A stretch of 64,000 nt of DNA from Mytilus trossulus (lineage: Eukaryota), in assembly GCF_036588685.1 (NCBI RefSeq), contig NC_086378.1, forward strand, positions 85,126,001 through 85,190,000. The letters run 5' to 3'. Position 1 is the first letter of the stretch. Each line of letters opens with the position of its first letter. The notes beneath the pieces are model-generated. The model saw only the letters and a program-made list of their open reading frames with translations. It made no database searches and had not been told where the DNA came from. Positions 5,319 to 62,581 of the stretch are shown in pieces. The position numbers and the translations under genes were made by a program.

Positions 5319-5541
5319 TTAAGAATAATAACAGTAGTATATTCTGGTTCTCTCAGTTTTCTTTGGGTGGCTTCCACCATCGGCACTAGTGTTGTTATGA
5401 ATATCTTCGTCGTCTGTTTTTACAAATTCCTCACGTGCGCTCATTCCACGCACGCGCTGACATAATGTTGATGTGTACTGGTACAAATAGAAGGGCTTAC
5501 TTGTTGGTAATACTATGTTTCTGTAGGAAGATCCATCAGAT
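5319..5541 (-). CDS. Copy 1 ApeC terminal exon D
   Basis: SDGSSYRNIVLPTSKPFYLYQYTSTLCQRVRGMSAREEFVKTDDEDIHNNTSADGGSHPKKTERTRIYYCYYS*; TAA at 5319-5321. Confidence 0.9.
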
Positions 5542-8500
5542 CTATTAAATAGAGATGCAATAATGTGAAATTATTATAAATGTAGACATTTTGGTCTTGA
5601 AATGCATTAAGTGAACATATGTCTGAACTTAGTTTGTTGTAAACTGCAAGTATTTTTACTTTTCTAGTAGTCTGACAGACGTTTTAACCTTGTTTTTTTC
5701 TTTTAACTTTCACAAAGGATTACTTCCTCTTTAATTTTTTTTTTTTTAAGTTTCCTTTGAATTCTCCTTTAAATATGCGACAAATATGTTTTAATCTCAA
5801 AATGTCAATAAAACAAAGACAAGGAAGACAACTTGAGATGTGCACGTCACTTGGACATTATCTGATCATTATCTCAAAGGCAATTATACTGTTCTTCTTA
5901 TTTTGATGTGATTAACAACCATACTAAAGTATTAACATGAGGTATACAGTTTACATACAGAAAAGTTCCTACAAAGAAAGAATGTTTTGAATAATGACTT
6001 CTCTAATTTTCATGCTATTCTCACATTTCCTGACCGGTGTGAGAAAAATATTTCTAATTTTCTAGTGAAAAATTTGTTCTTAGCAAATGATTTGTGGAAA
6101 TTTTATTGTGACGTTAAATTTTCTTTTGTTTCTTTTGAATTTTCACATAAAAAGTACACAACTTTCTTCAAATCTTTGAAAAAAAAGGATAAAAATCATT
6201 AGAGAAACAGATTCCACCACTATTACTCGTGTATTATGATATTTCTCCACTCTCGACAGTTAAATTGTAACTATTTAAAAAGCTCGGCAAGCCTCGTAAA
6301 ACACTTTTTGCAGTTGTGGAATTTATATTTACCTGCAACAGTAGTATATCCTTGTGTTTCTATTATAGGTACCATCTGGAAGAATTCCGTTCTTTGAATT
6401 AGCATTGTTGTGGTCTTCGTCAAACCAATATATACTGCCTGTTCTGAATCCTATACAAATAAATTTGATCTTAATCTTTATATTTGGTAAGGATAAAGAA
6501 TTTTAGAAATCTGCAAGATAAAGTCACGCGTAGTAATTCAATTATCTGTTCAATTACATATTGATACGAACTTTATTTTTCTAATACCTGTTCCATGTTG
6601 GTATTACGCTTTATTGAATAAAAAAAAAAAAGATATACTTAAAACCATTTCAAGCCTAGGTATAACCGCAGGGATATATACATTTTATTGTTATCGTATC
6701 AAATGGTACCATTTTTTTTTATCTTGATACGCATAACGACGATAACAATCTCCTTAGTAATGCATAAAATATTTGAAAAAAAGACAAAAAAACGCGCTGA
6801 TTAAATCGAAAAACATAAACCACTGAGTCGTCACCAATGTCACTTTCGGTTCCTTGATATGGTCATATTAATCAAGTAACTGATTTCTCAACTTTGATAG
6901 TTTACTGACCTGTCCACACAAACAATAACATTGTTGAAACGAAAACCAATTTCAGCTCAACAGTCAGTTCTTCAGTCGTACATGATTTATAATAACCCTA
7001 TCTACAATTGTCTGTTTATAAATTTTGAAATCATAAAGAAACTAAGTTTTCACCTAACACAGGAAAACTTCGCCTGAGATGGATTTGGCTACTTATATCT
7101 AAAATTATGTTCTTTCAGTCATAAAGCTGGTCAATTGTTTCGGTTCTTATAAATCATAGGCTTTTAAATATTTGGCTTTGAGGGTTCCTGGTGAAGGTTC
7201 ACCCAGAAAAGCGCATTGGACGCATGAAATTATATAACGTGTTTTGAATTATAATCCTGGTACATTTGATAACTATCTTCCCAAAAGCCAATAAAAACTC
7301 CGACTTACCAGAAGGACAGGAACCCCCTTTCCTGGCAATACAATAGTTTCCACGTGGCCAGGATCCCGATCCACCATATGTTATTTTGGTACAGTAACAC
7401 AGCTTTGTGTTTCTGCCGAAAATACCTGTTTGTATATAACAGTAAGACGTATATGCAAATTTATTACATAACTTTAGAATCAACTGGACAGTGTCAGATA
7501 CATGTTCACAACTGTCTTTCGAGTCATATCACTTTCTAAGTCTGTTATTTAAATATCATCGTGTTGATATGCCATGATTCCTTTTTTCTTAATCAAACAA
7601 TGTTCAAAGTGATCTGTTTGCGTCTCTTTTTTCAACTTATGTCTATATGTTTTTAATGCTAATGCATTTGTTTTTAATTTTGTTTTGTTTTTTGTATAAA
7701 CGTTGAACGAACAGAAAGCTACAAATAATCGACAGAACTACCAGACACCATAAAATAGCACTCCCAATAATATTTCCCCTTACAAAATCACATGATACAA
7801 AAAAAACAAACACCCAACAACACATTTTTATATATCCAGAGACTTCACTTTAATATATTTTTGTTGATGGTTTGTATGATTCAAATTATTATTCCGATGC
7901 ACATAATTTATAGTTACTAACCCTGTTTGAACAGGTACAAACAGTACATATTAACGTATATCGATGAATCAATCATATTGGATTTTCTAAAAGAAATCTT
8001 TGGATATATTTAATAAGTTATTACATGTTAGATTGCAGTTTTTGAATTGTGCCTTGCAAACTTTTAGCTGTAATTTCACAGATAAAAGTTAGTAAGACTA
8101 TTGAAAAATAATACATCGAACTTACCATTAAAGTGATGGTTGTATCTGACATCGTTCACATTATGTATATCTTCATTATCCTGATATATACATCCTTCAG
8201 CCCATCCAGGTGGACATCCTGATTTTGATTTTGGAAGCGAGTACCTTCCACGTGGCCAGCTCACTTAAAAATTATTTTAGACGGTTACATCATGTTTTAA
8301 CTAACTATAATAGTAGGGCTTATTAAGTTATAAGACTGGTATCGGTGGTGAGTTTTTCATCCACATGATTATATTCCAAAATTTACATTCTCTGAGGTTT
8401 AAATATTTTGCTAAACACAGTTATTGCATTTAAATTATTATTTTGTTCAATTACAAGCATGGCAAACTCGATACTATTCGAATGGCTTACACTAATTCTA

Positions 8501-11500
8501 TAATAGAAATGGATGAAAAGTGCAATATCGCAGAAGCCATAAGACATATGAATATCATTCAGTGATATATGAAATATGAATATCAATTGGAAGATAACCG
8601 TGGTCATCTGAGATATTTTAATATACCCAACCATCCCGATACTGATATCCCATAAAGTTCAACCAACCCGATACTGATAATCCCATTATGGTCAACTAAC
8701 CCGAGATGACGTCCATAAAACACTGAAGTCTAAAATCGAGATCTTAAACATGTTCATCAAAATGAAAAGAAAAACTTATATATACATTTAATAAAATGAT
8801 GGCGTACGGAATGAGTTTCTGGAATACCAAACAAATTAATAATGTAAGAGTGTAAACAATCATGGCGTACGGGATGAGTTTCTGGAATACCATACACATT
8901 AATAATGCAATAGTGTAGACAATCATGGCGCTCGGAATGAGTTTCTGGAATACCATACATATTAATAATGCAAGAGTCTAGACAATCATGGCGCTCGGAA
9001 TGAGTTTCTGGAATACCATACAAATTAATAATGCAAGAGTCTAGACAATCATAACGTACGGGATGAGTTTCTTGATTACCATATACATTAATAATGCAAG
9101 AGTCTAGACAATCATGGCGTACGGGATGAGTTTCTTGATTACCATACATATTAATAATGCAAGAGTCTAGACAATCATGGCGTACGGGATGAGTTTCTTG
9201 ATTACCATACATATCAATAATGCAAGAGTCTAGACAATCATGGCGTACGGGATGAGTTTCTTGATTACCATACATATTAAAAATGCAAGAGTCTAGACAA
9301 TCATGGCGTACGGGATGAGTTTTGGAATACTAGTACCATACACATTAATAATACAAGAGTCTAGACAATCATGGCGTACGGATGAGTTTCTGGAATACCA
9401 TACACATTAATAATGTAAGAGTCTAAACAATCAAACGATATAAAGTATAAAACAAAAATAACATTCAAAGCCTTAGTAGTTGTTTATGCTATATCTGTTT
9501 CTTTATGTCGCCTTTAACCTGAGCGATAAATGTAGTTGTTTATGCTATGTCTGTTTCTGTCTGTCTTCTTTACATACCTATGACACAACCAGCGTTTGAG
9601 GGCCAGTCACAAACATTAATACGCCGGTTCCAGTGTAGTCCAACGGGACAGGGCATGGTATAAGAAATACCATGTCCACATTGTATGAAGGACGAACAGT
9701 CGTATGGATTGGGCAAATATCCATTGATAATTGTACTGCAATCTGAAAAAAATTACAATAACTGAAAACACCCTTCAAATGTTATAAATATTCTGTCATT
9801 GAATTATTAACTCGACTGATCATTTCGTTTAATGTTCTCTTATTACTTGTATAGTTTGATAGTACTTGAATGTTGGTTTTGGTTTTTGTTTTAAGAACTT
9901 AAAAGAAGGAAGTCTTATAATGTAATTCTATTATCTGTAAGCTACCAAAATGAATTAGACATTAAGGTTGTAGAAGTTAGTATAGTTTTAACATACAAGC
10001 GTGAACACAGATCATAGAGAGATCCTTTTTTTCCCACAAGAACTTTCTATGTTGAAATGTGGTGCACAGTGACAGCAATCCTATACCAAACACTAAAAAA
10101 GCAGCGTCTTTTATCTAATATTAAGTTTTAATGTTCAAGACTGTCGTGAAGGAGACACTTTTTTAAATCAGTGTCAATCGTTCATATATTTATATAAGTC
10201 TTATGTAGACAAAACGCGCGTCTGGCGTACTAAATTATAATCCTGGTACCTTAAATAACTATTATTTAAATAAAATTAACTATTGCCATCACATCCGCAT
10301 ATTGGCCAAAATACTATGACTGCATCGTGTAAATAATATGTACGTTCCTGTAATCAAATTTTGTGCATTTCAAACTTTCCATTCGGGAATTTTCTTTCAA
10401 CACTTGGAATAACTTCTTTTTGAATACATAAACATGTTTAACATTGATTCTTTTAAGGGGACACATCTAACTGAGTGGGTTCAAACGCGCTGCAGAGATT
10501 AACGTAAAGCAGAAGCATGTATTGTCAAATGTTTCCGATAAAAAAATTCTGATAGCAGGAAAAGCGCTAAATAAGATGCGGACTTTAGGTGCATTTCTGC
10601 ATGGTGTGATTCTAATATACATTGCATCCAAGAACCCGCAAGCATGTTACATTTATATGATTCTATTTGTGCTCCTTTGTAGTGTTAATTTCATTGTTGG
10701 CCCTGTCCACAAACAAACTGTAAAATCTTTTCAGGATCTTCCCAGTATCATAAGTAAAAAATTGTTCAAATTTCGGAAGTGTTTCTTTCAAGCTATATTA
10801 TGTTTTTAAGTAACAACAGTATACGAGATATGGCAGATACAAATACAGATGATCTTAACTGCTACAACACTCAATGAAACTGATAAAATTTCATATTGAT
10901 CATATACATTCAATCTTCTTCAGCAGGCAACACAGATGTTTAAAAAAGAGTTTTTAAACAACCTGGCATCATATTGCTGGTAGCACAATAATCATTGTTT
11001 CGGTAAATTTGTGTTTTTATGCCCTTTTTATTGGCATTATGTTTTTTTGTCTGTATGTCTGTCCGTCCGTCCGTCCGAGACGAACTTTGAAGGCCGTACG
11101 GTGATATATAATTGTTAATGTTTGTGTCATTTTGGTCTTTTGTGGATAGTTGTCTCATTGGCAATCATACCATATCTTCTTTTTTATATTTAAAGTACGT
11201 TGGGCATTTGTGTTGGACATGTTTATACAAACGTGCCATATATACCTATAATCTTGAAGATGATGTTGATTGTGGTCCTACTGTTATTGTTTTGAGATTT
11301 GACCTTTTAATTTTAAGGTGTAATATGACATTTCAGTGCCTTTTATAAATAACTATGCGGTATGGCCTTTGTTCATTGTCGAAGGCCGTACTGTGACCTA
11401 TAGTTGTTAATACTGTGTCGTTTTGGTCTCTTGTGGAGAGTTGTCTCATTGGTGATCATACCCCATCTTCTTTTTTATAAGGAGATTGACCAACTAATCC

Positions 11501-12508
11501 ACTAATGAGATATTGTAATTCTGACAACAACACACCAAATACTGTTGACGTACCATTACTGGTGTCTAAAACTGAACTTATCAGATTCAGCATATAAATT
11601 AATCAGTGATTTTGGAAATCAGACCCTTATACCAGTATAATGAGATATGCAAATGCTCCTTTAACTGTTTTATAGTACACAACATACCACGTATCATTGA
11701 CTTCCCTTAAGTATTTCTTGTTAAACTAACCAACATGAAAACAGACAGTATTCTCCGAAATCTAACATGTCCAACGAATGCTATAGGCCAAAAACTTGTC
11801 ACTTAAAAAAACAACTTTAAAAAAATGTCATCAATATAAATGTACACAAAGGTATCTGACATGTGTTGTTGGGTTAACAGACACCAGATAAAATAAAAGG
11901 GATATGTGACCATGGGACACAGATGATAACACTACTTGCAAATAAAAGATAGCGGAACAAAACTCAGTAACGGTAAAACTGACACTAGCCAACTGTGTGC
12001 TTAATCTGAATTTTGTGGTATTTAACATTGTTTGAAAGTTTCATACAATTTGTTTGTGGAAAACGAAAGCTAGGGAAAGGAGAAAATGATTTCAGCAATT
12101 TTTCCATTTATAAAGGGTCATAACTCTCGAACAGTAAAGATGAGGCCACCAAAATTCAAACTTAATCAATGTTTTGTGGTAATAAGCATATAAGTTTCAT
12201 AAAATGTGTTTGAGGCAAACGAAATTAAAAGAGAGGAGAAAATAATTCCTTATTTTTTTTCCATTTATAGGGCATAACTATGTCGATTCAAACGTTATCT
12301 GTGTTTTATGTTAATAAGCATTATATATAGCTTTGAGCATTATGTATAAGTTTCATAAAATTTGTTACAGAACGGAAACCAATTTTGGGACATACGGACG
12401 GATATTGGTAATTTTAAATACCCTTCCTTCATGGCCGGTTTGTGTATATGTTATTTGGGAGGGGGTCGGTGTTGACCTAAAACATGTCATCAAATTTTTA
12501 AATAAAGC

Positions 12509-12542
<34 letters not shown>

Positions 12543-12954
12543 GATGACGGACATAAAAAAGAATATCACAATAAAAAAATTTGTTCACTTGCTAGAGATC
12601 ATTATTTTATTTTCAATATGATTATTAAAGTAAGAATTTTAGATGAAGGTATTTCACAAATATTATAGATTATCGCACCGCGGGTATATAATCTCGTAAA
12701 ATTAAAAACAACATGTTTAATAATTTCATGCACCCGTAGCGCTTTTCTGGATTTAATTTCATCAGTTATATATAAGTGAAAAGTAAAATGCTTCTGTTAA
12801 AGGATTCTTTATTCTGTGAAAGATATTGTACAATATACATTCATTAATTACGGTGCATCAATATAAAGTACCTCATATATTAGGAGGAAAATGTACAAAA
12901 CCTACCTGCCCAAACATATTCAATCATCAAGAACAGAATTAACATATTCACCAT
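5319..12954 (-). CDS. ApeC copy 1: secreted signal peptide + CBM14 chitin-binding domain + ApeC (apextrin C-terminal) domain protein, 6 coding exons, 269 aa
   Basis: Exons 12906-12954, 9578-9742, 8126-8263, 7309-7425, 6333-6450, 5319-5541 all have GT-AG borders and join into an 810-nt open frame: MVNMLILFLMIEYVWA-DCSTIINGYLPNPYDCSSFIQCGHG...CDWPSNAGCVI-VSWPRGRYSLPKSKSGCPPGW...QDNED...WPRGNYCI...WFDED...LPDG..YCCRSDG...LPTSKPFYL...CQRVRGM...TDDED...YCYYS*. The motifs match the ApeC consensus recalled from apextrin-like proteins. Confidence 0.9.
6333..6450 (-). CDS. Copy 1 ApeC exon C
   Basis: 118 nt, GFRTGSIYWFDEDHNNANSKNGILPDGTYNRNTRIYYCCR. Confidence 0.9.
7309..7425 (-). CDS. Copy 1 ApeC exon B
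   Basis: 117 nt, GIFGRNTKLCYCTKITYGGSGSWPRGNYCIARKGGSCPSG, CAG/GTAAGT borders. Confidence 0.9.
8126..8263 (-). CDS. Copy 1 ApeC exon A
   Basis: 138 nt, VSWPRGRYSLPKSKSGCPPGWAEGCIYQDNEDIHNVNDVRYNHHFNG, AG/GTAAG borders. Confidence 0.9.
8790..9432. repeat. 63-bp intronic minisatellite (~10 copies) next to the CBM14 exon
   Basis: ACGGGATGAG recurs at 9121 and 9184; 21-aa repeat in ORF 8757-9275. Confidence 0.9.
9578..9742 (-). CDS. Copy 1 chitin-binding type-2 (CBM14/peritrophin-A) domain exon
   Basis: TTTTTTCAG acceptor, G|GTATGT donor, 165 nt, phase 1-1; translates DCSTIINGYLPNPYDCSSFIQCGHGISYTMPCPVGLHWNRRINVCDWPSNAGCVI, with six Cys and the CPxGLxWN..C-DWP signature. Confidence 0.92.
   Translation of the reverse strand: MAVQLSMDICPIHTTVRPSYNVDMVFLIPCPVPLDYTGTGVLMFVTGPQTLVVS
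12509..12542. repeat. (TAT)n microsatellite
   Basis: About 11 consecutive TAT units. Confidence 0.9.
12906..12954 (-). CDS. Copy 1 signal-peptide exon (MVNMLILFLMIEYVWA, phase-1 donor)
   Basis: ATG at 12954, 16 mostly hydrophobic codons + G, donor G|GTAGG; the same 49-nt coding length occurs in copies 2 and 3; an upstream acceptor near 12976 implies a 5' UTR exon. Confidence 0.85.
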
Positions 12955-15417: not shown

Positions 15418-18217
15418 TTAAGAATAATAACAGTAGTGTATTCTGGTTGTCTCAGTTTTCTTTGGATGACTGCCACCATCGGCACTGTAGTTATGAGTAT
15501 CCTCATCATCTGTTTTCACAAATTCCTCACGTGCGCTCATTCCTCGCACACGCTGGCATAGTGTTGATGTGTAATGGTACAAATAGAAGGGCTTACTAGT
15601 TGGTAATACTATGCTTCTGTAAGAAGGTCCATCAGATCTATTAAACAGATTGGCAGTAATATGAAATCATTATAAATGTAGATTTTCTTGTTATGAAATG
15701 CATTAAGTCATTAAGTGGGGTCTTTGTCAGAACACAGTATGCAATTTTGTTTTCGATCAACCGAAGTATTCTTACTCTTCGTTTAGTCTAACAGACGTTT
15801 TGAACCTTACTTTTTACTTTCATTTTTCATACGAACTTTTACATTGGATTACCTCCCTTTTATTTGATTTAGTTCAATTTGAAACAATCAAAATATTACA
15901 ATGCGGGTTTGCCTGTACAAAGTCAGCATATGACAGCTGTTTTTTTATCCATTTGATGTGTTGGGGATTTTGATTATGACATTGGATAAATGGCTTACCG
16001 TTTTGAAGTGTCCTTTGATTTGTTAAATAAGGGACAAACTCATTCTCAAAATGTAAAAAAAATTATCTCAAATGCAATCATACTTTTCTTCCATAACATT
16101 TCAATCAAAGAAAGAATATTTTGAATAACGATATACCTGCAACAGTAGTATATCCTTGTGTTTCTATTATATGTTCCATCTGGAAGAAATCCATTCTTTG
16201 AATTAGCATTGTTGTGGTCTTCATCATCCCAATAGATACTGCCTGTTCTAAATCCTATAATAAGAGTTTTGTTTTAATTTTTTTTTTTTATCTATTATCA
16301 TTTTATTTACAATATTACCATTGCAACCCCAAGGACAGCTGCATAGATATAATTTGTATGCTATTAGTATCAAACGTTACCAATTTTACTAAATTGAATG
16401 AACAGTTCGACAACAATGATCTGTTTAGTGATGATCGAGGCCAACATATTTGAAACAAAAACATAAAAGAACCTGTTGTAGAGATGATATCATCGAAAAG
16501 ATAAACGAGAGAAAAACATAAACGTTTTTTTACAATCACTTGGTCGATGCCATTTCTGGTTCATTGATATGATCAAATTTAACAATCAACAGATAACGTA
16601 ACTTTTAATTGTTCCAAATATTATCTTTTTCTAACGCTTTCTTAGCGTAGACATAAATACTAAATGTTATATTCCATAACTTCCGAATACCAATAAAAAT
16701 TACAGACTTACCGGAAGGACATGAACGACCATATCTCGCAATACAATAATTTCCACGTGGCCAGGATCCTGATCCACTGTAGGATGTTTTTGTACAGTAA
16801 CACAGCTTCGTGTTTCTGCCAAAAATTCCTAGTTGTATATAACAGTAAGTTGTATATCTATCACATAATTTTAAATTTATAAGGCAATTGTCAGTGATTT
16901 TCACAACTGTCTTTCAGATCATATCAAATTCTACCTCTGTTATTCAAATATCGTCTTGTTGATATGCCAGGGTTTATTTTCGTAGTCTAGCAATGTACGA
17001 AGTGATCTGTTCGCGCTTTTTTTCAATTTATGTATAAGTATTTTGAATGCTAATACATGTTATTTATTTATTTTTGTTTATATTGTTTCTTGATTAAAGG
17101 TTGACCGGACCAGAAGCAACAAATAAACGACAGAAATACAAGACACCACAAAAAAGTTATTCCAGTAATCGTTTCCCCATCAAAATCACATGATGCAAAA
17201 AAAAACATCATTTTTATATATCAAGAGACACCTCATAAATGTATTCCTGAGGATGTTTTGTATGATTCAAATTATAATTTCGATGCACATAATTACAGTT
17301 GATAAACCTGTTTGTATAGCTACAAAAGGTACAGATCAACACATAAAGATAAATCATTGAATTTGGATTTCCTATAATAAATATTTGGATATCTTTAGTA
17401 AGTAAATGTATGTAAGATTGCTATCGATTTAATTATTTAATGCTATCATTTCACAAATAAAACGTTTATATATAAATAAGACTATGAAACAGATAATACA
17501 TCGAACTTACCACTGAGGTGATGGTTGTAGCTAACGTCGTTAACATTATGTATATCTTCATTATCCTGATATCTACATCCTTCAGCCCATCCAGGTGGGC
17601 ATCCTGATTTTGATTTCGGAAGCGAGTACCTTCCACGTGGCCAGCTCACTTAAAAAATGAGTATAGACGGTTATATATGCAGCAATTTTTTAAGTAGCTA
17701 AAATATAAGGTTTTATCAAGGTGAAAGCCTTGTGAGTTTTTCATCCACATTATTATATCGCCAAATTTACATTCTCTGAGTTTTGCTAAAAATAGTTACT
17801 AGTTTGTAATCAAATTATTATTATGTATAATTAATATTAATACATAAATTGATTACTGGCCTTTTTATATTAAAGTAAAATTGTATGACGTGTATAAATG
17901 ATTGAAAGCACAAGGTAGAACTACTTAAATCTGTTCTTTTTTTATAGACCAAAGATATTAATATCGAAGAACCAGAGGAAAATTTTGTTATTCATATACA
18001 TATATATCCATAGCTTCATTTTAACCGTTACATAAGTAATTTCAGAGGGAAATTTGTGAGACACAGGAAATCATCAATATATAAGTGAAAAGTGAAATGA
18101 TTTTTTTGAATGATATTGTACAATATACATACATCAGATATCTTAGGATGATAATGTACAAAACTTACCTGCACAGACAGATGCAATCAACATGAACAGA
18201 ATAAACATATGCTCCAT
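15418..18217 (-). CDS. ApeC copy 2: secreted single-ApeC-domain (apextrin-like) protein, 5 coding exons, 213 aa
   Basis: Exons 18169-18217 (MEHMFILFMLIASVCA), 17511-17648, 16712-16828, 16137-16254, 15418-15637; GT-AG borders, 642-nt open frame, motifs QDNED, WDDED, TDDED, ends YCYYS*. Confidence 0.92.
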
Positions 18218-23653: not shown

Positions 23654-24086
23654 TATATAGTATGAAGATGAAATTATATGTTCTTAAATAAATTTGGTTG
23701 ATGAATGTGGAGTAAAGTAGAGATTTGATTAAATTAGTTAAGGTTAAAATCTATACGCTGTTATTCTTAATTACAGACCTCATTAACATATAATTTTCAT
23801 AATTTCAATTAGAACTAGAATTGATGTTTTAAAGATAGAGGTAGAGCTTTTGGTTTAATTGTCCAAAAGATATGCACAACGAAATTACTGTTCTCTTGGA
23901 TGTGAACTCAAGCTTTTATAAGAATTCATCGACTGAACCAGCTAATACACATCCTGCAATTATGATCCCAATTCACAGCTTTTATGTTCGTCCTCTATTA
24001 CCTTTTACTTTACGGATTTAAGAAACGATAAAAACCACCTAGACACATTTCGGATATCCACGTGCATATAAAACCGTATTCATAAA

Positions 24087-27979: not shown

Positions 27980-30900
27980 CTACGAATAGTAACAGTAGTC
28001 TACTTTGGTTGTGTCAGATTTACTTGGATGAGTTCCATCATCACTGCTGTTGTTCTGGTTATCCTCGTCATCCATCTTCACAGATTCTTGTTGGACGGTC
28101 ATTCCACGTACACGCTGGCATGTCGATGTATACTTGTACAGATAGAAAGGATCACTTGTTGGGAGGTTAATGCTACTGTATGTTGATCCATCAGACCTAC
28201 GGTAAATAATGTATCGTTTTGAATCATGTATTATAAATAAATTTTAAATATGCCTGAGCATAACATAAAATGCTCGTCTTTCGTTTTAACAAAAGTTTCC
28301 AGTAATGCAAAATCGTGATTAATACATACAGCTGACAGTCTCGTACTTTTATTATTAATCAGGTAATTGAAGAGTTGGTGATTTAATGTCACATACTTTG
28401 CTGAAATTTGTACACAACTATTTATATTTTGTGTTAATACAACAAATAAGTATAACAATTGGTGATAATAAAACTTACTGTGAAAGAAACTTTAAAATCT
28501 CTTTTTCAGGTGATCTCTAATTTTTCCAAAAGAATCATCAATCACTATTGAAACACTTATAATTGTTATTGCAACTTTAATGGTATATTGCAAATTTGAC
28601 ATTGAAATGGCAATACTTCAACTTGTCAACTATGCAAAGCATTTAAAGTCAATAGACCATGTTTTTGGTGTCGGAGTCATATCATTCATACTAAAATATC
28701 ATGTACAAATGTTAATACACCTGCATAACAATTGTTATTCATCTACCTCTTTTATTTGCGTAATAAATAGTATTTGATTTTAAAAAAGGGAAGTGTTTTA
28801 AATATGAATTCATCTTGACTGATGGACTCTGGCAGAATAATATCCACGGAAACGAGATGTACAATGTTTATACAACTACATTACAATATCATTGACTTTA
28901 TACTATTGGGTTCTCGAAAAACTCACCTTATCCAAATGTTATACTATATCGAGACACGTCCTACTTTTTATAAATTTCCGAAGTGTTTTGAACACTGAAC
29001 AGAAAATAACCTTTTGAATAATGACATACCTGCAACAGTACTGTATTTGAGTGTTTCTGCCGTATTCCCCATCTGGGAGTACACCCCATTTTGAGTTGGC
29101 ATTTGCGTTGTCCTCGTCGTCCCAGTAGATTGATCCATTAGAAAATCCTATCAAGAGATATTCATTTCAAACGGTTATGATTGACTGAAGGATATTACAC
29201 CGAAATGTTTACAATCAATTCATTTTGTCTTCAAAGGGATACGGTTGAATAATTTATTATTTGCTTTAACGCTTGTCCAATCATAGTCTGAAAAAAGTAC
29301 AATTGAACTAACCATTCCAAACTATAGAATAGTTGCAAACTTTTTTCAAACAATTCTTTAATGGATATTCATATCAGTACACTAAGGCATTACACATTTA
29401 GATTCAAAAGAGGGTTATTGTGTTTCTTAAATACATGATTTGATCTCCAATTATTAAATTTATTGAGAAAAAATGTAATGCGGTCAAGCAGATGACAAAA
29501 TAATGTTATGATTCCTGAATTTTTATCACTTAGCGTATATAACTTTCATAAATGAAAAATACAGATCTTATTTTAGTACTTACTGTCTCTGTGGTTGATA
29601 CCTTATTGTGACAACCTCACCAAATGCCAATTATTGTATTTAATTATAAATCTAGACGAGTATTTTAGAGAATCGTCTTTTGGTATATATATTTAAAGGT
29701 CCCATCGACCGTTTAATTAAAATCCAGAGCAGGAAATTACCTTTGTTATATTATAGTTCGTGTCTGTGTGTGTTGTATTTTGGTGTTGTGTTTCTGTTGT
29801 GTCGTTGTTCACCTCTTATATTTGACGTTTTCCCTTCCGTTTTAGTTTGTAACCCGAATTTGTTTTTTTTCTCAATCAATTTATTATTTTAAACAGCGGT
29901 ATACTTCTGTTGCCTTTATCTATGTAGCTGACTGTTGGTCAATTTTTAAATTAATCCATATAAAAATTTACACTATGAATGTTTATTAATAAAAAATACT
30001 ATACCTGAAGGACACGAACCACCATATCTCGCAATACAATAATTTCCACTTGGCCAGGAACCTGATCCGCTATAAGTCGTTTTTGTACAGTAACACATTC
30101 TTGTGTTTCTACCAAAAAAACCTAGAAATATAGAAAGGAAAATGAAGGCTGTTTTATCTCCCGAAATTTTGACTACATATGCAAATGTACAATCGACTTG
30201 ATATTTATATTTCTTTTCAATTAGGGAATTACTAGTAATGTGGTTACTTAATGATTCTTATATACCTATATGGAGTTATTTTCTTTCAGAACGTCAGGTC
30301 ATTTTTTTTCAGAATCGACCCGGACGATACCATGTTTCAATGGTATATGCTCCAAGGCATAAAATAATGACCTGTGTAAGGTCATTATCTTCCTTGATAA
30401 ACATGCAATCTATGATTTACTTCAAAATTTTATTCGTCTAATTTTTTTTTGTTGCCGATTTTGAAATTTATTTTCTAAAGTTCAACCGATGATAGATGTA
30501 CAAGAAACCGTCATTGTAGACCCGCAATTTAATTTTAGAAACAAATAACGTGAAGTTTTGTTGATAATAAAGAAACATTATCATATAGGTCAGATGAATT
30601 TTAATGTAGACTTTCATAAAATAAATCCAGATTTGAAATATTCGTGTGTAAGATTTTGAAAATCTTATTGAGTCAAACTGAAAAGGTTGATTGCTTACCG
30701 TCCAGTGGCGAATATTTCATGCATGTTCAGAACGATACACACTGAATAGGAAATCATACTGTGACCTTCATGTATTTATATTCGTCTTCGTGTCAGTTCG
30801 TAACTTTTTCAAATTTATGTATACCTTTTACTCTATCAAATGATCAGCTAATAAAATAATTTTATATTCTATTGAATAACATTAACGTAACCCACGAAAG

Positions 30901-32731
30901 GATCGGGTGCGGAGGGTATATAACTTTATCCTGATTATCTTTTAATAAAATGTATTGCTATTCGAAAGACAATCTTTCTGAATTTTTCATTCGATTCAAG
31001 TAAAATGGTCAAATAAATAAAAACTTTTCCGCGATAGAAATAACATAACAAAACGAAAAAAAAAACATATCCCTCCCCCTTTTCATTAAGCTAAATGATA
31101 TAATAAATAACTTACAATGTGTCTTGTATTTGTCATACACCGTTATCGGATGGTAACAATACATTTGTGTCTTAGTTGTGTTGTCGGTAAAAAAGTATAC
31201 TAAATTTTACAAATCTTTATAAAATTAATATTTTTTTTTGACGGTATATAAGTCAGATAATGCATATTTTAAGTTTTTTTTTGTCGTAGAACACACCTCG
31301 GAGTGTTCTCCGACAAGAAAAATCTTAAAATATGCATTATCTATAACAGATATACCTCTTGTCTGTTCTAATTATTTAATGTTTTTTGTATTGGCGTTTG
31401 TATTTTGTATGGTTTTCATCCATTGAATAATTTCAAGAGGGGAAAATACCTTTGTGCGTGAATCACGTGGACAGGAATTGTTCGCAAAATTATAGAACTC
31501 GTAGGAAAAGGAATCCGAATCAAGTTTTGGTCGAAAATATATATGCTATACTTATACACGCACGTTAGAGTGACCTACATTTGCAAGACCGCAATTATGC
31601 TGGTAACTAATTTATAACTGCTCATAATAGTTTCATGTATAGATAGATATACTCATGACTAACATGACGAAACACTTTGTTTCCAAAAAGATATGCGTGA
31701 GTATAAAGTAGTATGCAATAGTTGCATGAAATACTGATGCACATATTACATTATTACATATAGAAATTTTTGACCATAGGCTATCTTGATATCTTCGGTT
31801 TATTGTATTGTTTGTTTGCTTCAGGAAAGCGCTATAGACGCATGACATTATCAAGCGTTTTTTTTTTTTAATTTTTCTATCACTTTCACATATGTTCCGA
31901 ACGTTTTTGTATTCATTGCAGCTACTTTATGTTTATTAGATCATATAATAACCAATGAAGTAGACTTACCATAGAAATGATGGTCCGGATCTGATGGGGT
32001 AACAGAGTTGATATTATGTGTATCTTCATTGTCCTGGTACCTGCATCCATCTGACCATCCATGTGGGCATCCTGATTTTGATTTCGGAAGCGAGTATCTT
32101 CCACTTGGCCAACCAACTAAAACAAAGATAGACTGATATCCATTGTTCGTAAATATTTCTTCTTATATGTAACATTGGTTCTCACAGAATTATTGTCTGA
32201 TGTGAATTTGATAATATCTAATTATCTAAAAAACTTTATTTCTAAAAATATGAAAAATGGCATTTTCTAATTGGTAGATTCTGAATTTCAACTAAACAAT
32301 GTGAAAAAGATAGCTGAGACAATCTCGTTTTACATAGATTCTCAATATGTGTCTCGTAAAATTTCACCAAAGATATCATGCATCATTCTTATTTGTGTAA
32401 TATCCATTTGATTTAAGTTTTAAATTAGATGAGATGTGAGTAAATGTACACGAAACAATTTCATAGAATATACGTTGTCAGAAAAAAACCAAAAATTGAA
32501 ATGCAACTTAGATGACCATTTCTTTCTGTGGACATTTGAAAGATACCAAGCTGATGTTTTTTTTTGTATCATCAAAATTGCACCAATCAAACGGTTATTT
32601 AAAGTTAAGATGGGCTATGCATATGTTAGATCAAATGGCATATAAAAAAGACCTTAACATTGAAAATTTTTACAAAACTTACTTGCATTAGCAGATGCAA
32701 TCATCAAGAATAGAATAAACATGTTCAACAT
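27980..32731 (-). CDS. ApeC copy 3 (divergent, acidic type B): secreted single-ApeC-domain protein, 5 coding exons, 215 aa
   Basis: Exons 32683-32731 (MLNMFILFLMIASANA), 31970-32116, 30005-30121, 29030-29147, 27980-28196; GT-AG borders, 648-nt open frame; probable 5' UTR exon donor near 33019-33020. Confidence 0.92.
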
Positions 32732-40333: not shown

Positions 40334-42862
40334 TTATGATGACAACAATTGAAGAGAAGAATAATAACAGTATTGTATTCTGGTTGTCTCAATTTTCTTT
40401 GGATGACTGCCACCATCGGCACTGTAGTTATGAGTATCCTTGTCATCTGTTTTCACGAATTCCTCACGTGCGCTTATTCCACGCACGCGCTGACATAATG
40501 TTGATGTGTAATGGTACAGATAGAAGGGCTTACTTGTTGGTAATACTATGCTTCTGTAGGAAGGTCCATCAGATCTAGTAAACAGAGATGCAATGATGTG
40601 ATATTATTATAAATGTAGACTTTTTTTGTGTTGAAATGCATTAAGTCATTAAGTTGAAACAATGTCTGAACTTTTTTTTATAATTTCTTTTTTGATCAAC
40701 TGGAAGTAAACTTATGTTTCGTGGAGTCAGACATACGTTTTTAATTTGTATTTTTTCCGATCTTGTGAGTTAAGCCTTTTTCATTTTTTCAACTGATTTT
40801 ATAGTTCGTTCTTATGTTGTACTGTGAAACCACTGTCCCAGGCTAGGGAAAGGGTTGGAATCCGGCCAACATGTTTAACTCCGCCACATTCTGTATGTAT
40901 GTACCTGCCTTAAGTCGGAAGCCTGTAATTCAGTGGTTGTCGTTTGTTTGTTTGTTACATATTTGGTTTTTCGTACATAGATTAGGCCGTTAGTTTTCTC
41001 CTTTAATTTTTTGTAATAGTCATTTCAATGCCTTTTTTATAGCTGATTCAAGCGATATGGGCTTTGCTCATTGTTGGAGGCCGTACGGTGACCCATATTC
41101 GTTAATTCTGTGTCATTTTGGTCTCTTTTCTAATTGGCAGTAACACAACATCTTCTCTTTATCTTATTATAAAAAAAAGTCAAGGATAAAATTGAGAATG
41201 GAAATGGGGAATGTGTCAAAGAGACAACAACCCGACCAAATAAAAAACAACAGCAGAAGGTCACCAACAGGTCTTCAATGAAGCGAGAATTTCCCGCACC
41301 CGGAGGCGACCTTCAGCTGGCCCCTAAACAAATATATACTAGTTCAGTGATAATGAACGCCATACTAATTTCCAAATTGTACACAAGAAACTAATATAGA
41401 AATAATACAAGACTAACTAAGGCCAGAGGCTCCTGACTTGGGACAGGCGCAAAAATGCGGCGGGGTTAAACATGTTTGTGAGATCTCAACCCTCCCCATA
41501 TACCTCTAACCAATGTAGAAAAATAAACGCATAGCAATACGCACATTAAAATTCAGTTCAATAGAAGTCCGAGTCTGATGTCAGAAGACGTAACCAAAGA
41601 AAATAAACAAAATGACAATAATACATAAATAACAACAGACTACTAGCAGTTAACTGACATGCCAGCTCCAGACTTCAATTAAACTGACTGAAAGATTATG
41701 ATTTCATCTTGAGATGTGCACTGTCTGATAATTATCTACAAGAAAAGCGTACTTTTCTCCTTTTTTATGTGATTAACACCAATTATAAAGTACTAACATG
41801 AGGTCGGAAAATTACATAAAGATAAATTCTTATAAAGAAAGAATGTTTTGAATAATGATATACCTGCAACAGTAGTATATCCTTGTGTATCTATTATAGG
41901 TTCCATCTGGAAGAATTCCTTTCTTTGAGTTTGCATTATTGTGGTCTTCGTCATCCCAATATATAATGCCAGTTCTGAATCCTTAAAAAGAGATTTTTTT
42001 TATCTGTTATTATTACATTTACAATATTAAAGAATTTTCGACAGTCACGTGTTAACACTTATTATCTGTTTTATTACGCTTTGACACGAACTTTCTGATT
42101 CTACAAGTATTTTTGGGTTAAACATATTTTATTTCGGTACACCGCTTCATTAAATCAAAAATGAAATGCGAAATGTTTAAAACCATTGCAAGCCCTGTGA
42201 CAACTGCTGGGATATTACTTTTAAGGAAATTGTATCAATCAATTTCTGTTTTTTTTAAGCATTTTCATTTATGCCATGTCACATACGATTCATTGATATG
42301 GTCATATTTATCAAGAATTTTAATAGTCTACCCATACAAACAATTACATTTAGGTAATGAAATAAAATTTCAGCTCAACAGCCAGTTCATCAGTTTTGAC
42401 ATGATTTATATTTTTATGATTTTAAGGTGAAACTCTATAGAAATATTGAATCTTAAATCTTCATAATAATCCTATCTAAAATTGTCCGTTGATAAATTTT
42501 GAAATTATAAAGTAACTTAGGTTTCATTTCCCTCAGGAAAAGCAGGTCTTAGATGGATTTGGCTATTTATTAGGGTCTTTTCGGTCATATAGCTCTGCCA
42601 TTGTTGTGGTTCTTATCAATCATTGGATTCAAATATTTTTTTTTAGCCTTGCCGATGAAAGTTAACCAGAAAAGCGCTTCAGACGCATGCAACTATAAAA
42701 CTTTTGGTTTTATTAATTTTCCGAAAGCCAATAAAACTACAGACTTACCTGAAGGACAGGAACCTCCTTTCCTGGCAGTACAATAATTTCCACGTGGCCA
42801 GGATCCTGATCCACCATATGTTGTTTTGGTACAGTACAGCTTTGTGTTTCTGCCGAAAATAC
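40334..42862 (-). pseudogene. ApeC copy 4, 5'-truncated pseudogene (only exons B, C, D remain)
   Basis: Exons 42749-42862 (Cys codon deleted, KL-YC), 41864-41981 and 40334-40574 (TDDKD; original stop lost by a 5-bp deletion, extended by SLQLLSS*). No signal or exon-A copy was found upstream: intron homology stops near 43075 and upstream-flank homology resumes near 45128. Confidence 0.8.
41185..41710 (-). repeat. Abundant dispersed repeat family 2 (other copies at ~25408-25720, 34770-35095, 57785-58170, 61480-61915)
   Basis: Shared core GGTTGAGATCTCACAAACATGTTTAACCCCGCCGCA...CCTGTCCCAAGTCAGGAGCC. Confidence 0.8.
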
Positions 42863-48529: not shown

Positions 48530-49990
48530 ACAAATAATCAATCTATGACAAACGAGACGATTTTAATTTTGAAATTATCAATTTCCCCCACCTTAGTAGT
48601 AATATACCAACTTCACCTGCATATGGAATATACATTTCCCAACTTATTAGGTATTCAAGAGCTTGCAGCTCCTATTCAGACTTTGTAAAACGTCACCAGT
48701 GTCTGAGCAGAAAGTTGATGAACCAGGGGTATGTCAAAGAACGTCTCGTCCTTTTTCTAAAAAAGTTCATCGGAAGATACCAAGAACTTGTTGATAAATA
48801 TTCCGTATCAACTTCACAAATAATACAAGATGGTCTTGAAGGATAGATTTTGCGTACTGACGTTTGTTATCATCTTAATTACGTATTATAGAATTCTTTT
48901 ATAAGTCTTTTTTAGATAATCATTTGAAGTGACTCAGTGGTTATGTAAAACCACATACTTTGAACGGCAAAATTATTTCATTGATTGATATTACTTTTAC
49001 TTAAGGATCTTGAATACTATGAATGACAAAAGTATTTTATTCAATAACACTACTTTTTCTGTTTAGTCTGTTTTTCATGATATACATTTGACGTGAAACT
49101 GTACTTATGTGTCCCGTCATACTTTGAACCACACCATTATTTTATTTATTATTATTACTTTTACTGTTAAGTCTGGTTTTTGGTATATCTACTTTACGTG
49201 AGTCTGTATTTATGTATGCCGACATACGACAAAATTATTTTTATGTCTACCTGTGCGAATTTCAAACGCGCTATTTTACACCAGTAATGATAACCTTCTA
49301 TCATTTATGGGTAGACTTTACATAGATAAATTCAGCCGTATTTGACGTGAAACTGTTCTTATGTATCCCGTCATACTTTGAACCACACCATTATTTTATT
49401 TATTATTATTACTTTTACTGTTAAGTCTGTTTTTGTTATATCAACTTTACGTAAGTCTTCATTTATGTATGCCGTCATACGACAAAATTATTTTTATGTC
49501 TACCTGTGCGAATTTCAAACGCGCATTTTTAAACCAGTAATGAAACCTTCTATCATTATGGGTAGACTTTACATAGATAAATTCAGCCGTTTAAGAAAAG
49601 CAAAATGAGAATGTTAAATTAATGTATGCCTTTTTGTGCTTCTTTGTTACATTTGTTGTTTATGTAGAGATATTAAGATGATAACACAATATTGACTGTT
49701 GTACCCCTATTTTTGACATTTTTACTCTTTGAGTATGTTTGTTTTGTTCATGCATCGTTGACAATTTAATGGAATTTGATGCGACTGTCATATAAGTGAG
49801 AGGTTTAGCTAGCTATAAAACCAGGTTCAATCCACCATTTTCTACATTAGAAAATGCCTGTACCAAGTCAGGAATATGACAGTTGTTACCCATTCGTTTG
49901 ATGTGTTTGGACTTTTGATTTTGCCTTTTGATTTTTGATTTTCCTTTTTGAATTTTCCTCGGAGTTCGGTATTTTTGTGTTTTTACTTTT
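48530..49990 (+). mobile_element. Penelope-like retroelement 3' fragment with an internal ~255-bp tandem duplication (49085-49590)
   Basis: IYDKRDDFNFEIINFPHLSSNIPTSPAYGIYISQLIRYSRACSS from 48541 to a stop at 48846; duplicated downstream block. Confidence 0.7.
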
Positions 49991-52773: not shown

Positions 52774-52834
52774 ACTTATATACCGTAAAAAAACATTAAT
52801 TTTATAAAGATCCTATTTTACCAACAACACTTAA

Positions 52835-58171: not shown

Positions 58172-59115
58172 AACAGCTGCGCCATGAGCGCATGATACGC
58201 CCGACGTCTAATGTGGAAGTTATATGCAATAATCATAAATAGTTTCTGAGAAAGTTTTAAGCAATAACCATACTAGTATATAGTTTTTGAGACATGGCGG
58301 GAAACCCCCACCCTGGTTTTTTTTTTACAAAAAACTAAATATCACTAAAATAAAATTTTCAATCAAAACCAAAACGTATACAGATCTTTAGATTAATATA
58401 ACAAAGAAGTGTGTAAAGTTTTGAGCCATAATCATAAATTATTTTTGAGATACGGCGCGACAGGTAAAAAAACCTCCCCTGTTTAACAAAATACTCAATA
58501 ACTCAAAAATAAAATTTTGAATCATCACTAAAAAGTATACAGATCTTAAGATCAATATAACAAAGAAGTGTGTAAAATTTTAAGCAATAATCATAAATTG
58601 TTATAGAGATACGGCACATGTAAAAAAAAAACTCCCCCTTTTTTAACAGAATACTCAATCACACAAAAATGAAATTTTGATTTCATCATCAAAAAGTATA
58701 CAGATCTTAAGATTATTATAACAAAGACATGTGTAAAGTTTGTAGTAATACTCATAAATCGATTTTGAGATATGGCGCGACATGTAAAAAAAAATCCCCC
58801 TTTTTTACAAAATACTCAATAACTCAAAAATTAAATTTTGAATCATCACCAAAAAGTATACAGATATTAAGATTAATATAACTAAGAAGTGTTTAAAGTT
58901 TTTAGCCATAATCAGGAATCGTTTTTGAGATACAGTGCGACATGTGAGAAAAAACACACCCCTGTTTTAGTAACCATGTGCCGTAAATCAAAAAGTTTTA
59001 TTCTAATTTTCACCAAAAAGTATACAGATCATTTGACCATCATAAGAAACAACTATATTAAGTTTCATGAAATTTGGATATGTCGTACTCAAGTTACGGT
59101 GCGACATATTTACGC

Positions 59116-59169
<54 letters not shown>

Positions 59170-59264: not shown

Positions 59265-59429
59265 ACAACATACTACTAGCAGTTAACTGTCATGCCAGCT
59301 TCAGACCTCAATTTAACTGATTGAAAATTTATGTCTCTTCATCATATGAATATCAGGCACAATCCATCTCGGTAGGGGTTTATTACCATACTATCATAGA
59401 ATATATGAGAAGAACATAATCCGTGTCAT

Positions 59430-60720: not shown

Positions 60721-62361
60721 ACGGCAGAATCACATTTCGCTTACATAAGACTCATCATTGATCCTGACACTAAGATCAAGATAGTTAGAAAACAAAACAA
60801 GTACAAAGTTGAAGAGCATTGATGACCGAAAATTCCAAAATTTTGTGCCAAATACGGCTAAGGTTATTTATGCCTTTTATAAGAAAATCTTTAGAATTTC
60901 GAATAATTCATAATAGATATTCATGTTTTCACTGAAGTTCCGACTACTCGGATTGTGATACCATCAGAGACGAAGCGGAAACCAGCAGTGGCATCGACCC
61001 AGTGGTGTTCATAGTTAAATTCAAAGGTTGCAGGCTTATAATTTAATACGCCAAAACGCGCATTTCGGCTGTAATCCACCATTTTCTACATTAGAAAAAG
61101 CCTGTACCAATTCAGGAATATGACAGTTGTTATCCATTCGTTTGATGTGTTTTGATTTTTGATTTTGCCTTTTGACTTTTGATTTTCCTTTTTGAGTTTT
61201 CCTCGGAGTTTAGTATTTTTGTGTTTTTACTTTTCGTAGACATAAAAGTCATCGGTGACGCTAAGATCAAAATAGTTAGAAAGCCAAACAAGTTCAAAGA
61301 TGAAAATCATTGATGAACCCAAAAAATTAAAAAAAAGTTGTACAAAATACGATTAAGGTTATCTACGCCAGGGATGAGAAAATTCTTAGTATTTCGAATA
61401 ATTAATCCTTTTGCAAACTGCAAATTCATAAAACAAGAGGGATTGTGCTGATTTTCAAAGGATGACGACATAATATTCAAATCAGTTTAATTAAGGTCTA
61501 GAGCTGTTATTTCAGTCACTACTAGAAGATCTTTGTTTAATTATGTATTATTGTTATTTTCCGTTGCTTCATTTGTTACTTTTTCTGTCATCGGATTCGC
61601 ACTTTCTTTAAATTGAGTTGAACTGTGCGTATTATTGCGTGTTGCTTGATTCTACATTTGCTAGATATACATTTTTGTAAATAGGGAGAGTTGAGGTTCC
61701 ACAAATATGTTAAACAACGCCACATTAATTCATTTATATGTTTTGGTGTTGAGTATGACGTCCATTTGCAATAAAGTAGTTCACATACATTTAGGGGCTA
61801 GCTGAATGTGTGGGTGTAGGTGTGGGTTTAAAGACCCATTGGTAGCCTTTTTCTGTTATCTGCTGTTTGATTGGATTGTTATCTCTTTGACATACACACA
61901 ATGTCCATTCTATTTTTTCTTTTATTGTTATTTGTGTGTACATACCAGGATAAAATTTACCAATATTATGTTCCTGGCAACTAAACGTTGAACCTTTTAA
62001 CCTTTTTAAACAGAAATTGAATGATAAAAGTATTTTAACGCTTTATAACTTAATACTGACATGTTTCACTTTTATGAAGTTGAGTTTGTGAAAGGACATC
62101 TTCCTCAAAAACAAAACAACTTAGTTAAAAACTAAGACCAATACCTGATGATATGGGATTAATTTGAAATGTCCAGTGGCAAAATAATTTTGTGAAATTA
62201 GATATCTATTTTAATGCATAGAAACACACTTTAACAATTTACACAGGCTCAACAAGAAATCAGTCTATACAAAACTCATACCAATCAAGGAGAAAAGATT
62301 AAAAGTAAGAATAACAGGTGTATATCTGGTGTAGAATCATTGTCGTAAGGAAACCTTCGAA

Positions 62362-62581
62362 CTATGCAACATAATAACAGTAGTACACTTCAGTGGTATC
62401 TGTTTTCTTTGGATGAGTTCCACCATCACTGCTGTTGTTCCTGTCATCTTCATCGTCCGTCTTCACAGATTCCTGACGGACAGTCATTCCACGTACACGC
62501 TGGCACGACGAGGTGTACTGGTACAAATAAAAAGGCTCTCTGGTTGGTAGATTAATGTAACTGTAGGCCGAGCCATCAGAC
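62362..62581 (-). CDS. ApeC copy 5 (type B) terminal exon; the rest of the gene presumably lies beyond the window end
   Basis: AATAG acceptor; SDGSAYSYINLPTREPFYLYQYTSSCQRVRGMTVRQESVKTDDEDDRNNSSDGGTHPKKTDTTEVYYCYYVA*; 3' flank homologous to that of copy 3. Confidence 0.88.

What the first reader, a model, noticed from the sequence alone, without database searches (positions are those of the whole stretch)
5319..62581. Birth-and-death tandem cluster of at least five ApeC immune lectin genes, all on the minus strand
Seen: three intact genes, one pseudogene and a fifth terminal exon share intron positions and phases, and mostly the same exon lengths (49/138-147/114-117/118 nt), and fall into type A (copies 1, 2, 4) and type B (3, 5). 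None is visible as a long ORF. Inference: a rapidly diversifying pattern-recognition locus likely to show copy-number or presence/absence variation between individuals.
Basis: partly seen in the sequence, partly recalled or inferred. Interest (0 to 1): 0.7.

Follow-up and report, generated by a model that had tools for sequence, protein, structure and literature searches.

The report
Mussel lectin captured a chitin-binding exon
This is an ordinary row of seven duplicated mussel immune-lectin (ApeC) genes, but one copy splices in an extra chitin-binding exon, likely copied from an unrelated gene 1.7 million bases away, making a hybrid secreted protein predicted to bind chitin as well as bacterial cell wall.

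Summary
The cluster is real: three intact ApeC genes, one 5'-deleted copy and a terminal exon lie on the minus strand at the stated places. It runs on past the window to seven copies: four intact, one with a broken splice donor, two pseudogenes. The nearest named relatives are Mytilus apextrin-like proteins. All 15 pairwise dN/dS values are 0.13-0.31, so this is birth-and-death under purifying selection; presence/absence between individuals was not tested.

Copy 1 has a sixth exon (9742-9578, phase 1-1) encoding a complete CBM14 chitin-binding domain (Pfam 59 bits). Contigs of public runs splice it to exon 1 (3 of 4 runs) and to ApeC exon 2 (4 of 4, one as a loose end). The exon and 1.55 kb of flank match only one other locus found, exon 2 of a TIG-domain (fibrocystin-L-like) gene 1.66 Mb away (dS 0.38, dN/dS 0.18). 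The fusion occurs in M. edulis and M. galloprovincialis gene models, not in the M. coruscus or M. californianus outgroups retrieved, and was not found described in the papers searched. Verdict: recent exon shuffling; new variant of a known lectin family; binding untested.

The parts
12906..12954 (-). c1 exon 1 (49 nt, signal peptide, phase-1 donor)
   Evidence: spliced to 9742 in contigs of X1, X2, X3
9578..9742 (-). c1 extra exon: 165 nt, phase 1-1, complete CBM14 chitin-binding domain (6 Cys)
   Evidence: Pfam PF01607 59 bits, profile 1-53/53; both splice joints seen in run contigs; in frame
8453..9998 (-). segment (CBM14 exon plus flanks) homologous to G000:C6:83476031-83478384, the likely donor
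   Evidence: the homology ends at 8453, where c1/c2 intron homology resumes
8795..9433 (.). 63-bp x 10.1 tandem array in the captured intron flank; single unit in the donor
8126..8263 (-). c1 ApeC exon 2 (138 nt)
7309..7425 (-). c1 ApeC exon 3 (117 nt)
6333..6450 (-). c1 ApeC exon 4 (118 nt)
5319..5541 (-). c1 ApeC terminal exon to stop (223 nt); full c1 product 269 aa = signal peptide + CBM14 + ApeC
15418..18217 (-). c2, intact type-A short-form ApeC gene, 213 aa (exons 18217-18169, 17648-17511, 16828-16712, 16254-16137, 15637-15418)
   Evidence: exon 1-2 joint in X2, exon 3-4 in X7, exon 4-5 in X2 and X3 (the last two could come from c1)
27980..32731 (-). c3, intact type-B short-form ApeC gene, 215 aa (exons 32731-32683, 32116-31970, 30121-30005, 29147-29030, 28196-27980)
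   Evidence: groups with 'nacre apextrin-like protein 1' at 97/77
40334..42862 (-). c4, type-A pseudogene: exons 3-5 only, one Cys codon lost, third DxED motif and stop lost
   Evidence: paralogue homology stops at 43077 and resumes at 45128-46214 (upstream block), exons 1-2 absent
62362..62581 (-). c5 terminal exon (type B); exons 1-4 lie beyond the window, exon-1 donor is GA

Best explanation
This is a tandem array of seven mussel short-form ApeC lectin genes, in which copy 1 splices in an extra phase 1-1 CBM14 exon that was likely copied from a TIG-domain gene 1.66 Mb away, giving a secreted CBM14-ApeC protein predicted to bind chitin as well as peptidoglycan. Shown: the exon structures; the in-frame CBM14 exon; its splice joints in public run contigs; the single second locus sharing exon and flanks; purifying selection on both CBM14 copies; and monophyly of the CBM14-bearing ApeC genes. 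Inferred: the array grew by unequal crossing-over. About when c1 split from c2 (dS about 0.36-0.38), a genomic segment of at least 1.55 kb replaced the middle of c1's first intron; its symmetric phase let it splice in without breaking the frame. Direction donor-to-c1 is about 75% likely. Also inferred: the product is a bifunctional agglutinin or tether at mucosal or haemolymph surfaces, with ApeC binding Lys-type peptidoglycan as the oyster short-form ApeC does, and CBM14 adding the chitin binding that short-form ApeCs lack.
For:: PF01607 59 bits, full length; joint 12906>9742 (GT-AG on the minus strand) in 3 of 4 runs; CBM end 9578 joined to an ApeC exon-2 start in X2, X3, X7 and as a loose end in X1; one 450-nt X3 contig spans exon 1, CBM and exon 2, with 7 differences from c2's exon 2, the same number by which c1 differs there; 266-aa SP-CBM14-ApeC models in M. 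edulis and M. galloprovincialis, CBM differing from the window's at 2 of 54 residues; only G000:C6:83.476 Mb shares exon and flanks; there the exon sits in frame between a signal-peptide exon and a TIG exon (70/165/196 nt, canonical sites); dS 0.38 (95% 0.17-0.71), dN/dS 0.18 (0.06-0.47), Fisher p 0.0004; the three other related CBM14 exons examined are at dS 1.4-1.8 from c1; the 5 CBM-bearing rows form one clade (97/88) inside edulis-complex type A (100/97); outgroups lack CBM. The CHIT1 high-impact residues Pro451, Leu454 and Trp465 (PMC5459812 passages) map by spacing to P32, L35 and W46 of the exon.
Against: No binding was tested; CBM14 domains also serve in shell and matrix proteins. The runs are only guessed to be RNA and are contigs, so there is no tissue, level or inclusion ratio; c1's own exons 2-5 were not in the laid stretch, and a CBM-skipping isoform was not tested. 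Direction is not proven: the two other TIG-gene paralogues checked have no CBM14 in the 20-30 kb upstream of that exon, so the exon is derived in the 'donor' too, and the donor's expression was not checked. Absence in M. coruscus and M. californianus rests on protein records, not their genomes. c1 in this genome has its second DxED motif changed to FDED. The AlphaFold model is poor over the CBM (pLDDT under 50 for residues 1-43 and 63-67).
Confidence: 0.78

Rival explanations
1. Same gene structure, but the fusion works in the shell or extracellular matrix: CBM14 anchors the ApeC domain to the mussel's own chitin scaffold, rather than to fungi or parasites.
For: A type-B relative (nacre apextrin-like protein 1, nearest named row to c3 at 97/77) was found in the nacre proteome (PMC4517812 passages). 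Chitin-binding domains are common in shell matrix proteins (titles and abstract starts).
Against: c1 is type A, close to AEK10750. Apextrin-like transcripts are reported high in haemocytes and gill (PMC4581086 passages) and shift after Vibrio injection (PMC6697025 passages); these passages do not say which copy. The oyster short-form homologue is a gill lectin (PMC9585378).
Confidence: 0.25
2. The copy ran the other way or from a lost third source: c1 acquired CBM14 first and the TIG gene received it, or both took it from a gene now deleted.
For: Two paralogues of the TIG gene lack CBM14. The TIG-gene copy is followed by three partial duplicates of the exon's 3' half, two with in-frame stops.
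Against: c1 is itself only dS 0.36 from c2, about the same as the CBM split (0.38). The other related CBM14 exons examined are at dS 1.4 or more, so c1-first needs a lost source.
Confidence: 0.2
3. One reading: a hypervariable locus under diversifying selection and presence/absence variation between individuals, with nothing special about copy 1.
For: Pseudogenes c4 and c6. Copy numbers appear to differ between assemblies, judged only from runs of adjacent accession numbers: 2, 3, 4 and 7 here. ApeC genes are dispensable in lancelets.
Against: dN/dS 0.13-0.31 in 15 of 15 pairs. c1 occurs in all 4 other edulis-complex assemblies whose models were retrieved. No mention of apextrin, ApeC or PF16977 in the 2 supplementary files held for the mussel pan-genome paper. 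The CBM14 exon is real and spliced.
Confidence: 0.12
4. The CBM14 exon is a neutral passenger in the intron, spliced as noise.
For: It sits among repeats and satellite arrays.
Against: dN/dS 0.18. Only 2 of 54 residues differ across species, against 13-14 of 198 in ApeC. It is spliced in contigs from four studies.
Confidence: 0.04

Closest known systems
Mollusc short-form ApeC-containing proteins (Li et al. 2022, PMC9585378; CgACP1), including Mytilus apextrin-like AEK10750 and nacre apextrin-like protein 1 AKQ70860
   Same: Signal peptide plus one ApeC domain of about 197 aa, Cys pattern and DxED motifs. c2, c3, c5 and c7 fit; both named Mytilus proteins fall inside this cluster's tree.
   Different: c1 adds an N-terminal CBM14. 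The paper's architecture section does not mention chitin-binding domains, and its accession table lists the neighbours (VDI32706, VDI32707, CAG2214854, CAG2214855) but not VDI32709 or CAG2214856. It reports weak or no chitin binding for short-form ACPs.
Amphioxus BbtPGRP1-3, chitin-binding domain fused to a peptidoglycan recognition protein (PMC4610682, abstract seen)
   Same: Same logic: an N-terminal chitin-binding module shuffled onto a peptidoglycan-recognising domain, widening the range of ligands.
   Different: That module is hevein-like and the partner is a PGRP amidase. Here it is CBM14 on a non-enzymatic ApeC, the event is recent, and a donor exon with its flanks is still visible.
CBM14 / peritrophin-A domains (tachycitin 1DQC, human chitotriosidase CBM)
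   Same: Six Cys; C-P-x-G-L ... C-x-W motif; sequence matches at E 1e-9 (tachycitin) to 2e-3.
   Different: Here it is a single-exon module fused to ApeC; binding not tested.
Apextrin proper (signal peptide + MACPF + ApeC)
   Same: ApeC domain.
   Different: No MACPF domain in any of the 8 full-length proteins scanned; these are not pore-forming apextrins.
Lancelet multi-lectin ApeC proteins (fucolectin + 2 CTL + CUB + ApeC; PMC12373286 passages)
   Same: Extra carbohydrate-binding modules placed N-terminal to ApeC.
   Different: Different modules, a different lineage, and mostly dispensable genes.

Membership tests
Short-form ApeC-containing protein | One ApeC domain of about 200 aa (PF16977) | tested here: met
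   181-201 bits, profile 1-208/208, for the c3-identical protein, the c1 orthologues and AEK10750
Short-form ApeC-containing protein | N-terminal signal peptide | tested here: inconclusive
   16-aa exon 1 with a hydrophobic core (8-residue mean hydropathy 3.25-3.4); no signal-peptide predictor was available
Short-form ApeC-containing protein | Eight conserved Cys and three DxED motifs | tested here: met
   c2, c3, c5 and c7 have 8-10 Cys and 3 of 3 motifs; c1 has 10 Cys and 2 of 3 motifs; the c4 fragment has lost one Cys and one motif. Cys were counted, not mapped onto the paper's figure.
Short-form ApeC-containing protein | No other domain | tested here: not met
   Not met for c1 (CBM14); met for c2 and c3
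Short-form ApeC-containing protein | Binds peptidoglycan and agglutinates microbes | not testable with these tools
   Shown for CgACP1 and BgACP1 (PMC9585378 abstract); inferred here
Apextrin (MACPF + ApeC) | MACPF domain | tested here: not met
   only PF16977 and PF01607 in 8 of 8 proteins; the gene models leave no room for it
CBM14 chitin-binding module | Full Pfam PF01607 match with six Cys | tested here: met
   59 bits against a cut-off of 22.1, profile 1-53/53
CBM14 chitin-binding module | Binding-site Pro, Leu and Trp (CHIT1 P451, L454, W465) | tested here: met
   P32, L35, W46 at the same spacing from the two Cys (residue numbers from PMC5459812 passages; alignments)
CBM14 chitin-binding module | Binds chitin | not testable with these tools
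   Needs a binding assay
Intronic exon shuffling of a phase 1-1 module | Symmetric exon, in frame, spliced | tested here: met
Intronic exon shuffling of a phase 1-1 module | Homologous exon with intron flanks in an unrelated gene; absent from paralogues and outgroups | tested here: met
   outgroup absence from protein records only
Intronic exon shuffling of a phase 1-1 module | Direction and mechanism of transfer | tested here: inconclusive
   AT-rich junction, no target-site duplication noticed in the pairwise alignments; both hosts carry it as a derived exon
Birth-and-death multigene cluster | Tandem paralogues, pseudogenes, lineage-specific duplicates | tested here: met
   No resequencing depth was examined

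The most novel reading that the evidence does not exclude
Copy 1 is an undescribed dual-specificity pattern-recognition lectin (chitin plus peptidoglycan), born by exon capture after the M. edulis complex split from M. coruscus and M. californianus and since kept in all three species. The same phase 1-1 CBM14 exon family has been plugged repeatedly into unrelated secreted mussel proteins (a fibrocystin-L-like TIG gene, an ApeC gene, a sushi/EGF/TSP1 gene, PAN-domain genes), so the birth of a new immune receptor can be dated and tested with donor, recipient and CBM-less sister gene all in hand.
Probability: 0.4. Interest if true: 0.72.

Novelty: new variant of a known kind. Interest (0 to 1): 0.55.

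Why it matters
Short-form mollusc ApeC lectins bind peptidoglycan but hardly chitin (PMC9585378). A copy that has gained an intact CBM14 is a natural gain-of-specificity experiment with its control, c2 (91% identical, no CBM), right beside it. Recent exon-shuffling events with the donor intron still alignable give a direct look at how invertebrate receptors gain modules. Practically, two public gene models fuse c2 and c1 into one 459-465 aa protein; the run contigs show c1 using its own first exon, so those models likely need correcting. The tandem cluster alone would be ordinary.

Tried and rejected
Uncollapsed haplotypes: rejected (dS 0.19-1.05 between copies). CBM14 exon as cargo of a multicopy transposon: not supported, since its flank matched 2 of 2 candidates scored, itself and one locus; common-word skipping limits this search. 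An ApeC gene at the donor locus: none by tblastn in 70 kb. The 190-aa frame at 8757-9329 is the 63-bp array read through, with no Pfam hit above cut-off. Run search: no RNA holder listed on record; 23 rows, all guessed RNA, shares 0.05-0.19; 4 were laid and 19 were not. Fold searches with the 266-aa model gave nothing usable: Foldseek had no match at E 0.001 or better; VIA wide gave one row at Z 2.1. The Atlas gave no usable hit. The first protein alignment misplaced 3 CBM-only rows and was rebuilt without them. Three tree rows (Cvir, Mtro_134723749, Mcal_127702281) were cut short at the N-terminus by my trimming; they are distant outgroups. Scan notes: 3 look-ups, 0 findings. The broad ApeC survey (Li et al. 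2021, doi 10.1016/j.ympev.2020.107009) was not available, so a CBM14+ApeC combination in other phyla cannot be excluded. Figure 1B of PMC9585378 could not be seen.
Full report
1. Observation. The window is AT-rich (31.5% GC) animal DNA at G000:C6:85126001-85190000 of a 1.3-Gb genome; the nearest named proteins are all Mytilus. All 9 ApeC-type exons scanned match PF16977 in order along the profile. A genome search with c1's terminal exon gave 30 matches from 32 candidates, 7 of them in this array. In 120 kb of flank, c5 is complete but its exon-1 donor reads GA; c6 has a 1-nt deletion in exon 4 and a damaged exon 5; c7 is intact; nothing lies in the 50 kb on the other side. c4 lost exons 1-2 by deletion: homology to its paralogues stops at 43077 and resumes in the upstream block at 45128-46214.

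2. Cluster evolution. Nei-Gojobori values over 148-197 codons for all 15 pairs among c1, c2, c3, c4, c5 and c7 give dS 0.19-1.05 and dN/dS 0.13-0.31 (c6 left out as broken). A tree of 41 ApeC domains recovers type A (100/98 with outgroups) and type B (96/89). M. coruscus and M. californianus contribute one type-A row each, sister to a clade of edulis-complex paralogues (100/97). c1 and c2 have orthologues in M. edulis and M. galloprovincialis (c2 at only 80/75). The named proteins AEK10750 (apextrin-like) and AKQ70860 (nacre apextrin-like 1) fall in types A and B. Per-exon identities are uneven (c1-c4 95% in exon 3, c1-c2 84%), which hints at exchange between copies; this was not tested. So birth-and-death holds, diversifying selection is not seen, and PAV is untested.

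3. The missed exon. c1's first intron is 4642 bp against 520 and 566 bp in c2 and c3. Inside it, 9742-9578 is a 165-nt AG...GT exon in phase 1-1 that encodes a whole CBM14 domain (59 bits, 1-53/53). With it, c1 reads open for 269 aa. No other copy in the 184 kb examined has it. Four public runs were laid on 9440-18300 (four studies, three organism labels; contigs, RNA status guessed by the tool). The joint 12906>9742 with GT-AG ends appears in X1, X2 and X3. The exon's 3' end joins an ApeC exon-2 start in X2, X3 and X7, and shows as a loose end in X1. c1's own exon 2 was outside the stretch, so these contigs were placed on c2's exon 2, which lies upstream and cannot be the cis partner. The X3 contig has 7 differences there, the number that separates c1 from c2. 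Inclusion rate and a skipping isoform remain open. Public models agree: 266-aa SP-CBM14-ApeC proteins in M. edulis (XP_071172452) and M. galloprovincialis (XP_076113207, VDI32709), all uncharacterised, plus two models that fuse c2 to c1 (CAG2214856, XP_063442793; the latter's c1 part matches the window letter for letter and is not independent). Among the 120 listed of 166 near-length relatives, only that cluster carries PF01607 with PF16977. Among 276 fetched proteins, 5 have both domains, all in that cluster. The representative search listed only its best 150 of 5060 hits, so this is not a full census.

4. Source. The exon and flanks (window 9998-8453) match one other place, G000:C6:83476031-83478384, 1.66 Mb away (88% over the exon). 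The match ends at 8453, where c1/c2 intron homology resumes. There the exon sits in frame between a 70-nt signal-peptide-like exon and a 196-nt TIG exon, with another TIG exon 15 kb on; the label 'fibrocystin-L-like' is my recall from this layout, not a tool result. The two CBM copies differ at 11 of 37 synonymous and 8 of 125 non-synonymous sites (dS 0.38, dN/dS 0.18, p 0.0004), close to the c1-c2 split (dS 0.36). The next relatives (25 matches from 75 scored) are 65% identical or less. The three examined are at dS 1.4-1.8 and lie in a sushi/EGF/TSP1 gene and next to PAN-domain exons. Against a simple story, two paralogues of the TIG gene (of 3 found) have no CBM14 upstream, so the module is derived there too. 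Donor-to-c1 is the simpler order because c1-first needs a lost source; I put it at about 75%.

5. Function (inferred). Oyster and snail short-form ApeCs bind Lys-type peptidoglycan, agglutinate microbes and show weak or no chitin binding (PMC9585378: abstract, passages, section 19, supplement part 1). The captured domain keeps the residues most needed for chitin binding in human chitotriosidase (PMC5459812 passages) and matches tachycitin and chitinase CBMs by sequence. It differs at 2 of 54 residues between species. AlphaFold models ApeC with confidence (blocks mostly 72-98) but not the CBM, so structure adds little. The likely product is a secreted two-ligand lectin. The closest tested analogue is amphioxus PGRP3, where a fused chitin-binding domain broadens activity (PMC4610682 abstract). 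A shell-matrix role is the main rival, since a type-B relative was found in nacre (PMC4517812 passages).

6. Novelty. ApeC clusters in bivalves are known, and neighbours of this array are in the 2022 survey, but the CBM14 forms are not in its accession list. Eight full-text searches (listings seen, passages read only for the papers named above and PMC8878817, PMC12373286, PMC4581086, PMC6697025, plus a supplement search of PMC7653742) showed no description of a CBM14-ApeC protein or of this capture. Subscription papers, including the 2021 ApeC survey and the 2011 paper on the Mytilus apextrin-like genes (recalled), were not seen. The protein exists in databases only as an automatic annotation. 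Verdict: the cluster is ordinary (about 0.3 alone); the dated, spliced, selected exon capture with a visible source raises it to 0.55, a new variant of a known kind.

Noticed in passing
window 5068-5349: 60-bp x 4.7 tandem repeat built from the last codons and stop of c1; the outermost unit still reads like an ApeC C-terminus.
   Followed up: partly
G000:C6:83473755-83479941 (L020/L021): TIG-domain (fibrocystin-L-like) gene with an N-terminal CBM14 exon that two paralogues lack; three partial duplicates of the exon's 3' half follow it in the intron.
   Followed up: partly
G000:C6:46570107-46587341 (L023, L024, L027): Two tandem genes that appear to pair a PAN_1 exon with a terminal CBM14 exon of the same subfamily.
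   Followed up: partly
G000:C12:15426001-15446000 (L025, L026): Modular sushi/EGF/TSP1 gene holding two CBM14-like exons, one 65% identical to the c1 exon.
   Followed up: partly
L001 (window-scale 67831-67879): c5 exon-1 donor is GA; public model P0026 carries c6's exon-1 sequence on c5's ApeC, so c6's first exon may be spliced onto c5 or the model is a patch.
   Followed up: no
P0016, P0017 versus P0008-P0010: AEK10750-type CBM-less proteins share their signal-peptide sequence with the CBM-bearing c1 orthologues in M. edulis and M. galloprovincialis, which suggests exon-1 exchange or a shared origin.
   Followed up: no
window 38111-39467: LINE-like retroelement remnant (zf-RVT 32.5 bits). 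Other frames at 19144-20068, 22822-23683 and 48538-48846 look like retroelement fragments by recall but had no Pfam hit.
   Followed up: partly
window 1139-3043 and 35566-35950; 49033-49590; 58321-59065: 49-51-bp satellite at two sites, a 253-bp duplication and a 160-bp array.
   Followed up: no
window 13926-14907, 20791-23891, 45128-46214: Conserved upstream block shared by the three type-A copies, a candidate promoter region; some run contigs lie over 14297-15015.
   Followed up: no
G000:C6 56.26-56.28, 74.21-74.29, 75.48-75.53, 77.22 Mb; C7 13.85-13.91 and 24.08-24.14 Mb: Further ApeC terminal-exon matches, most in small clusters, elsewhere in the genome.
   Followed up: no
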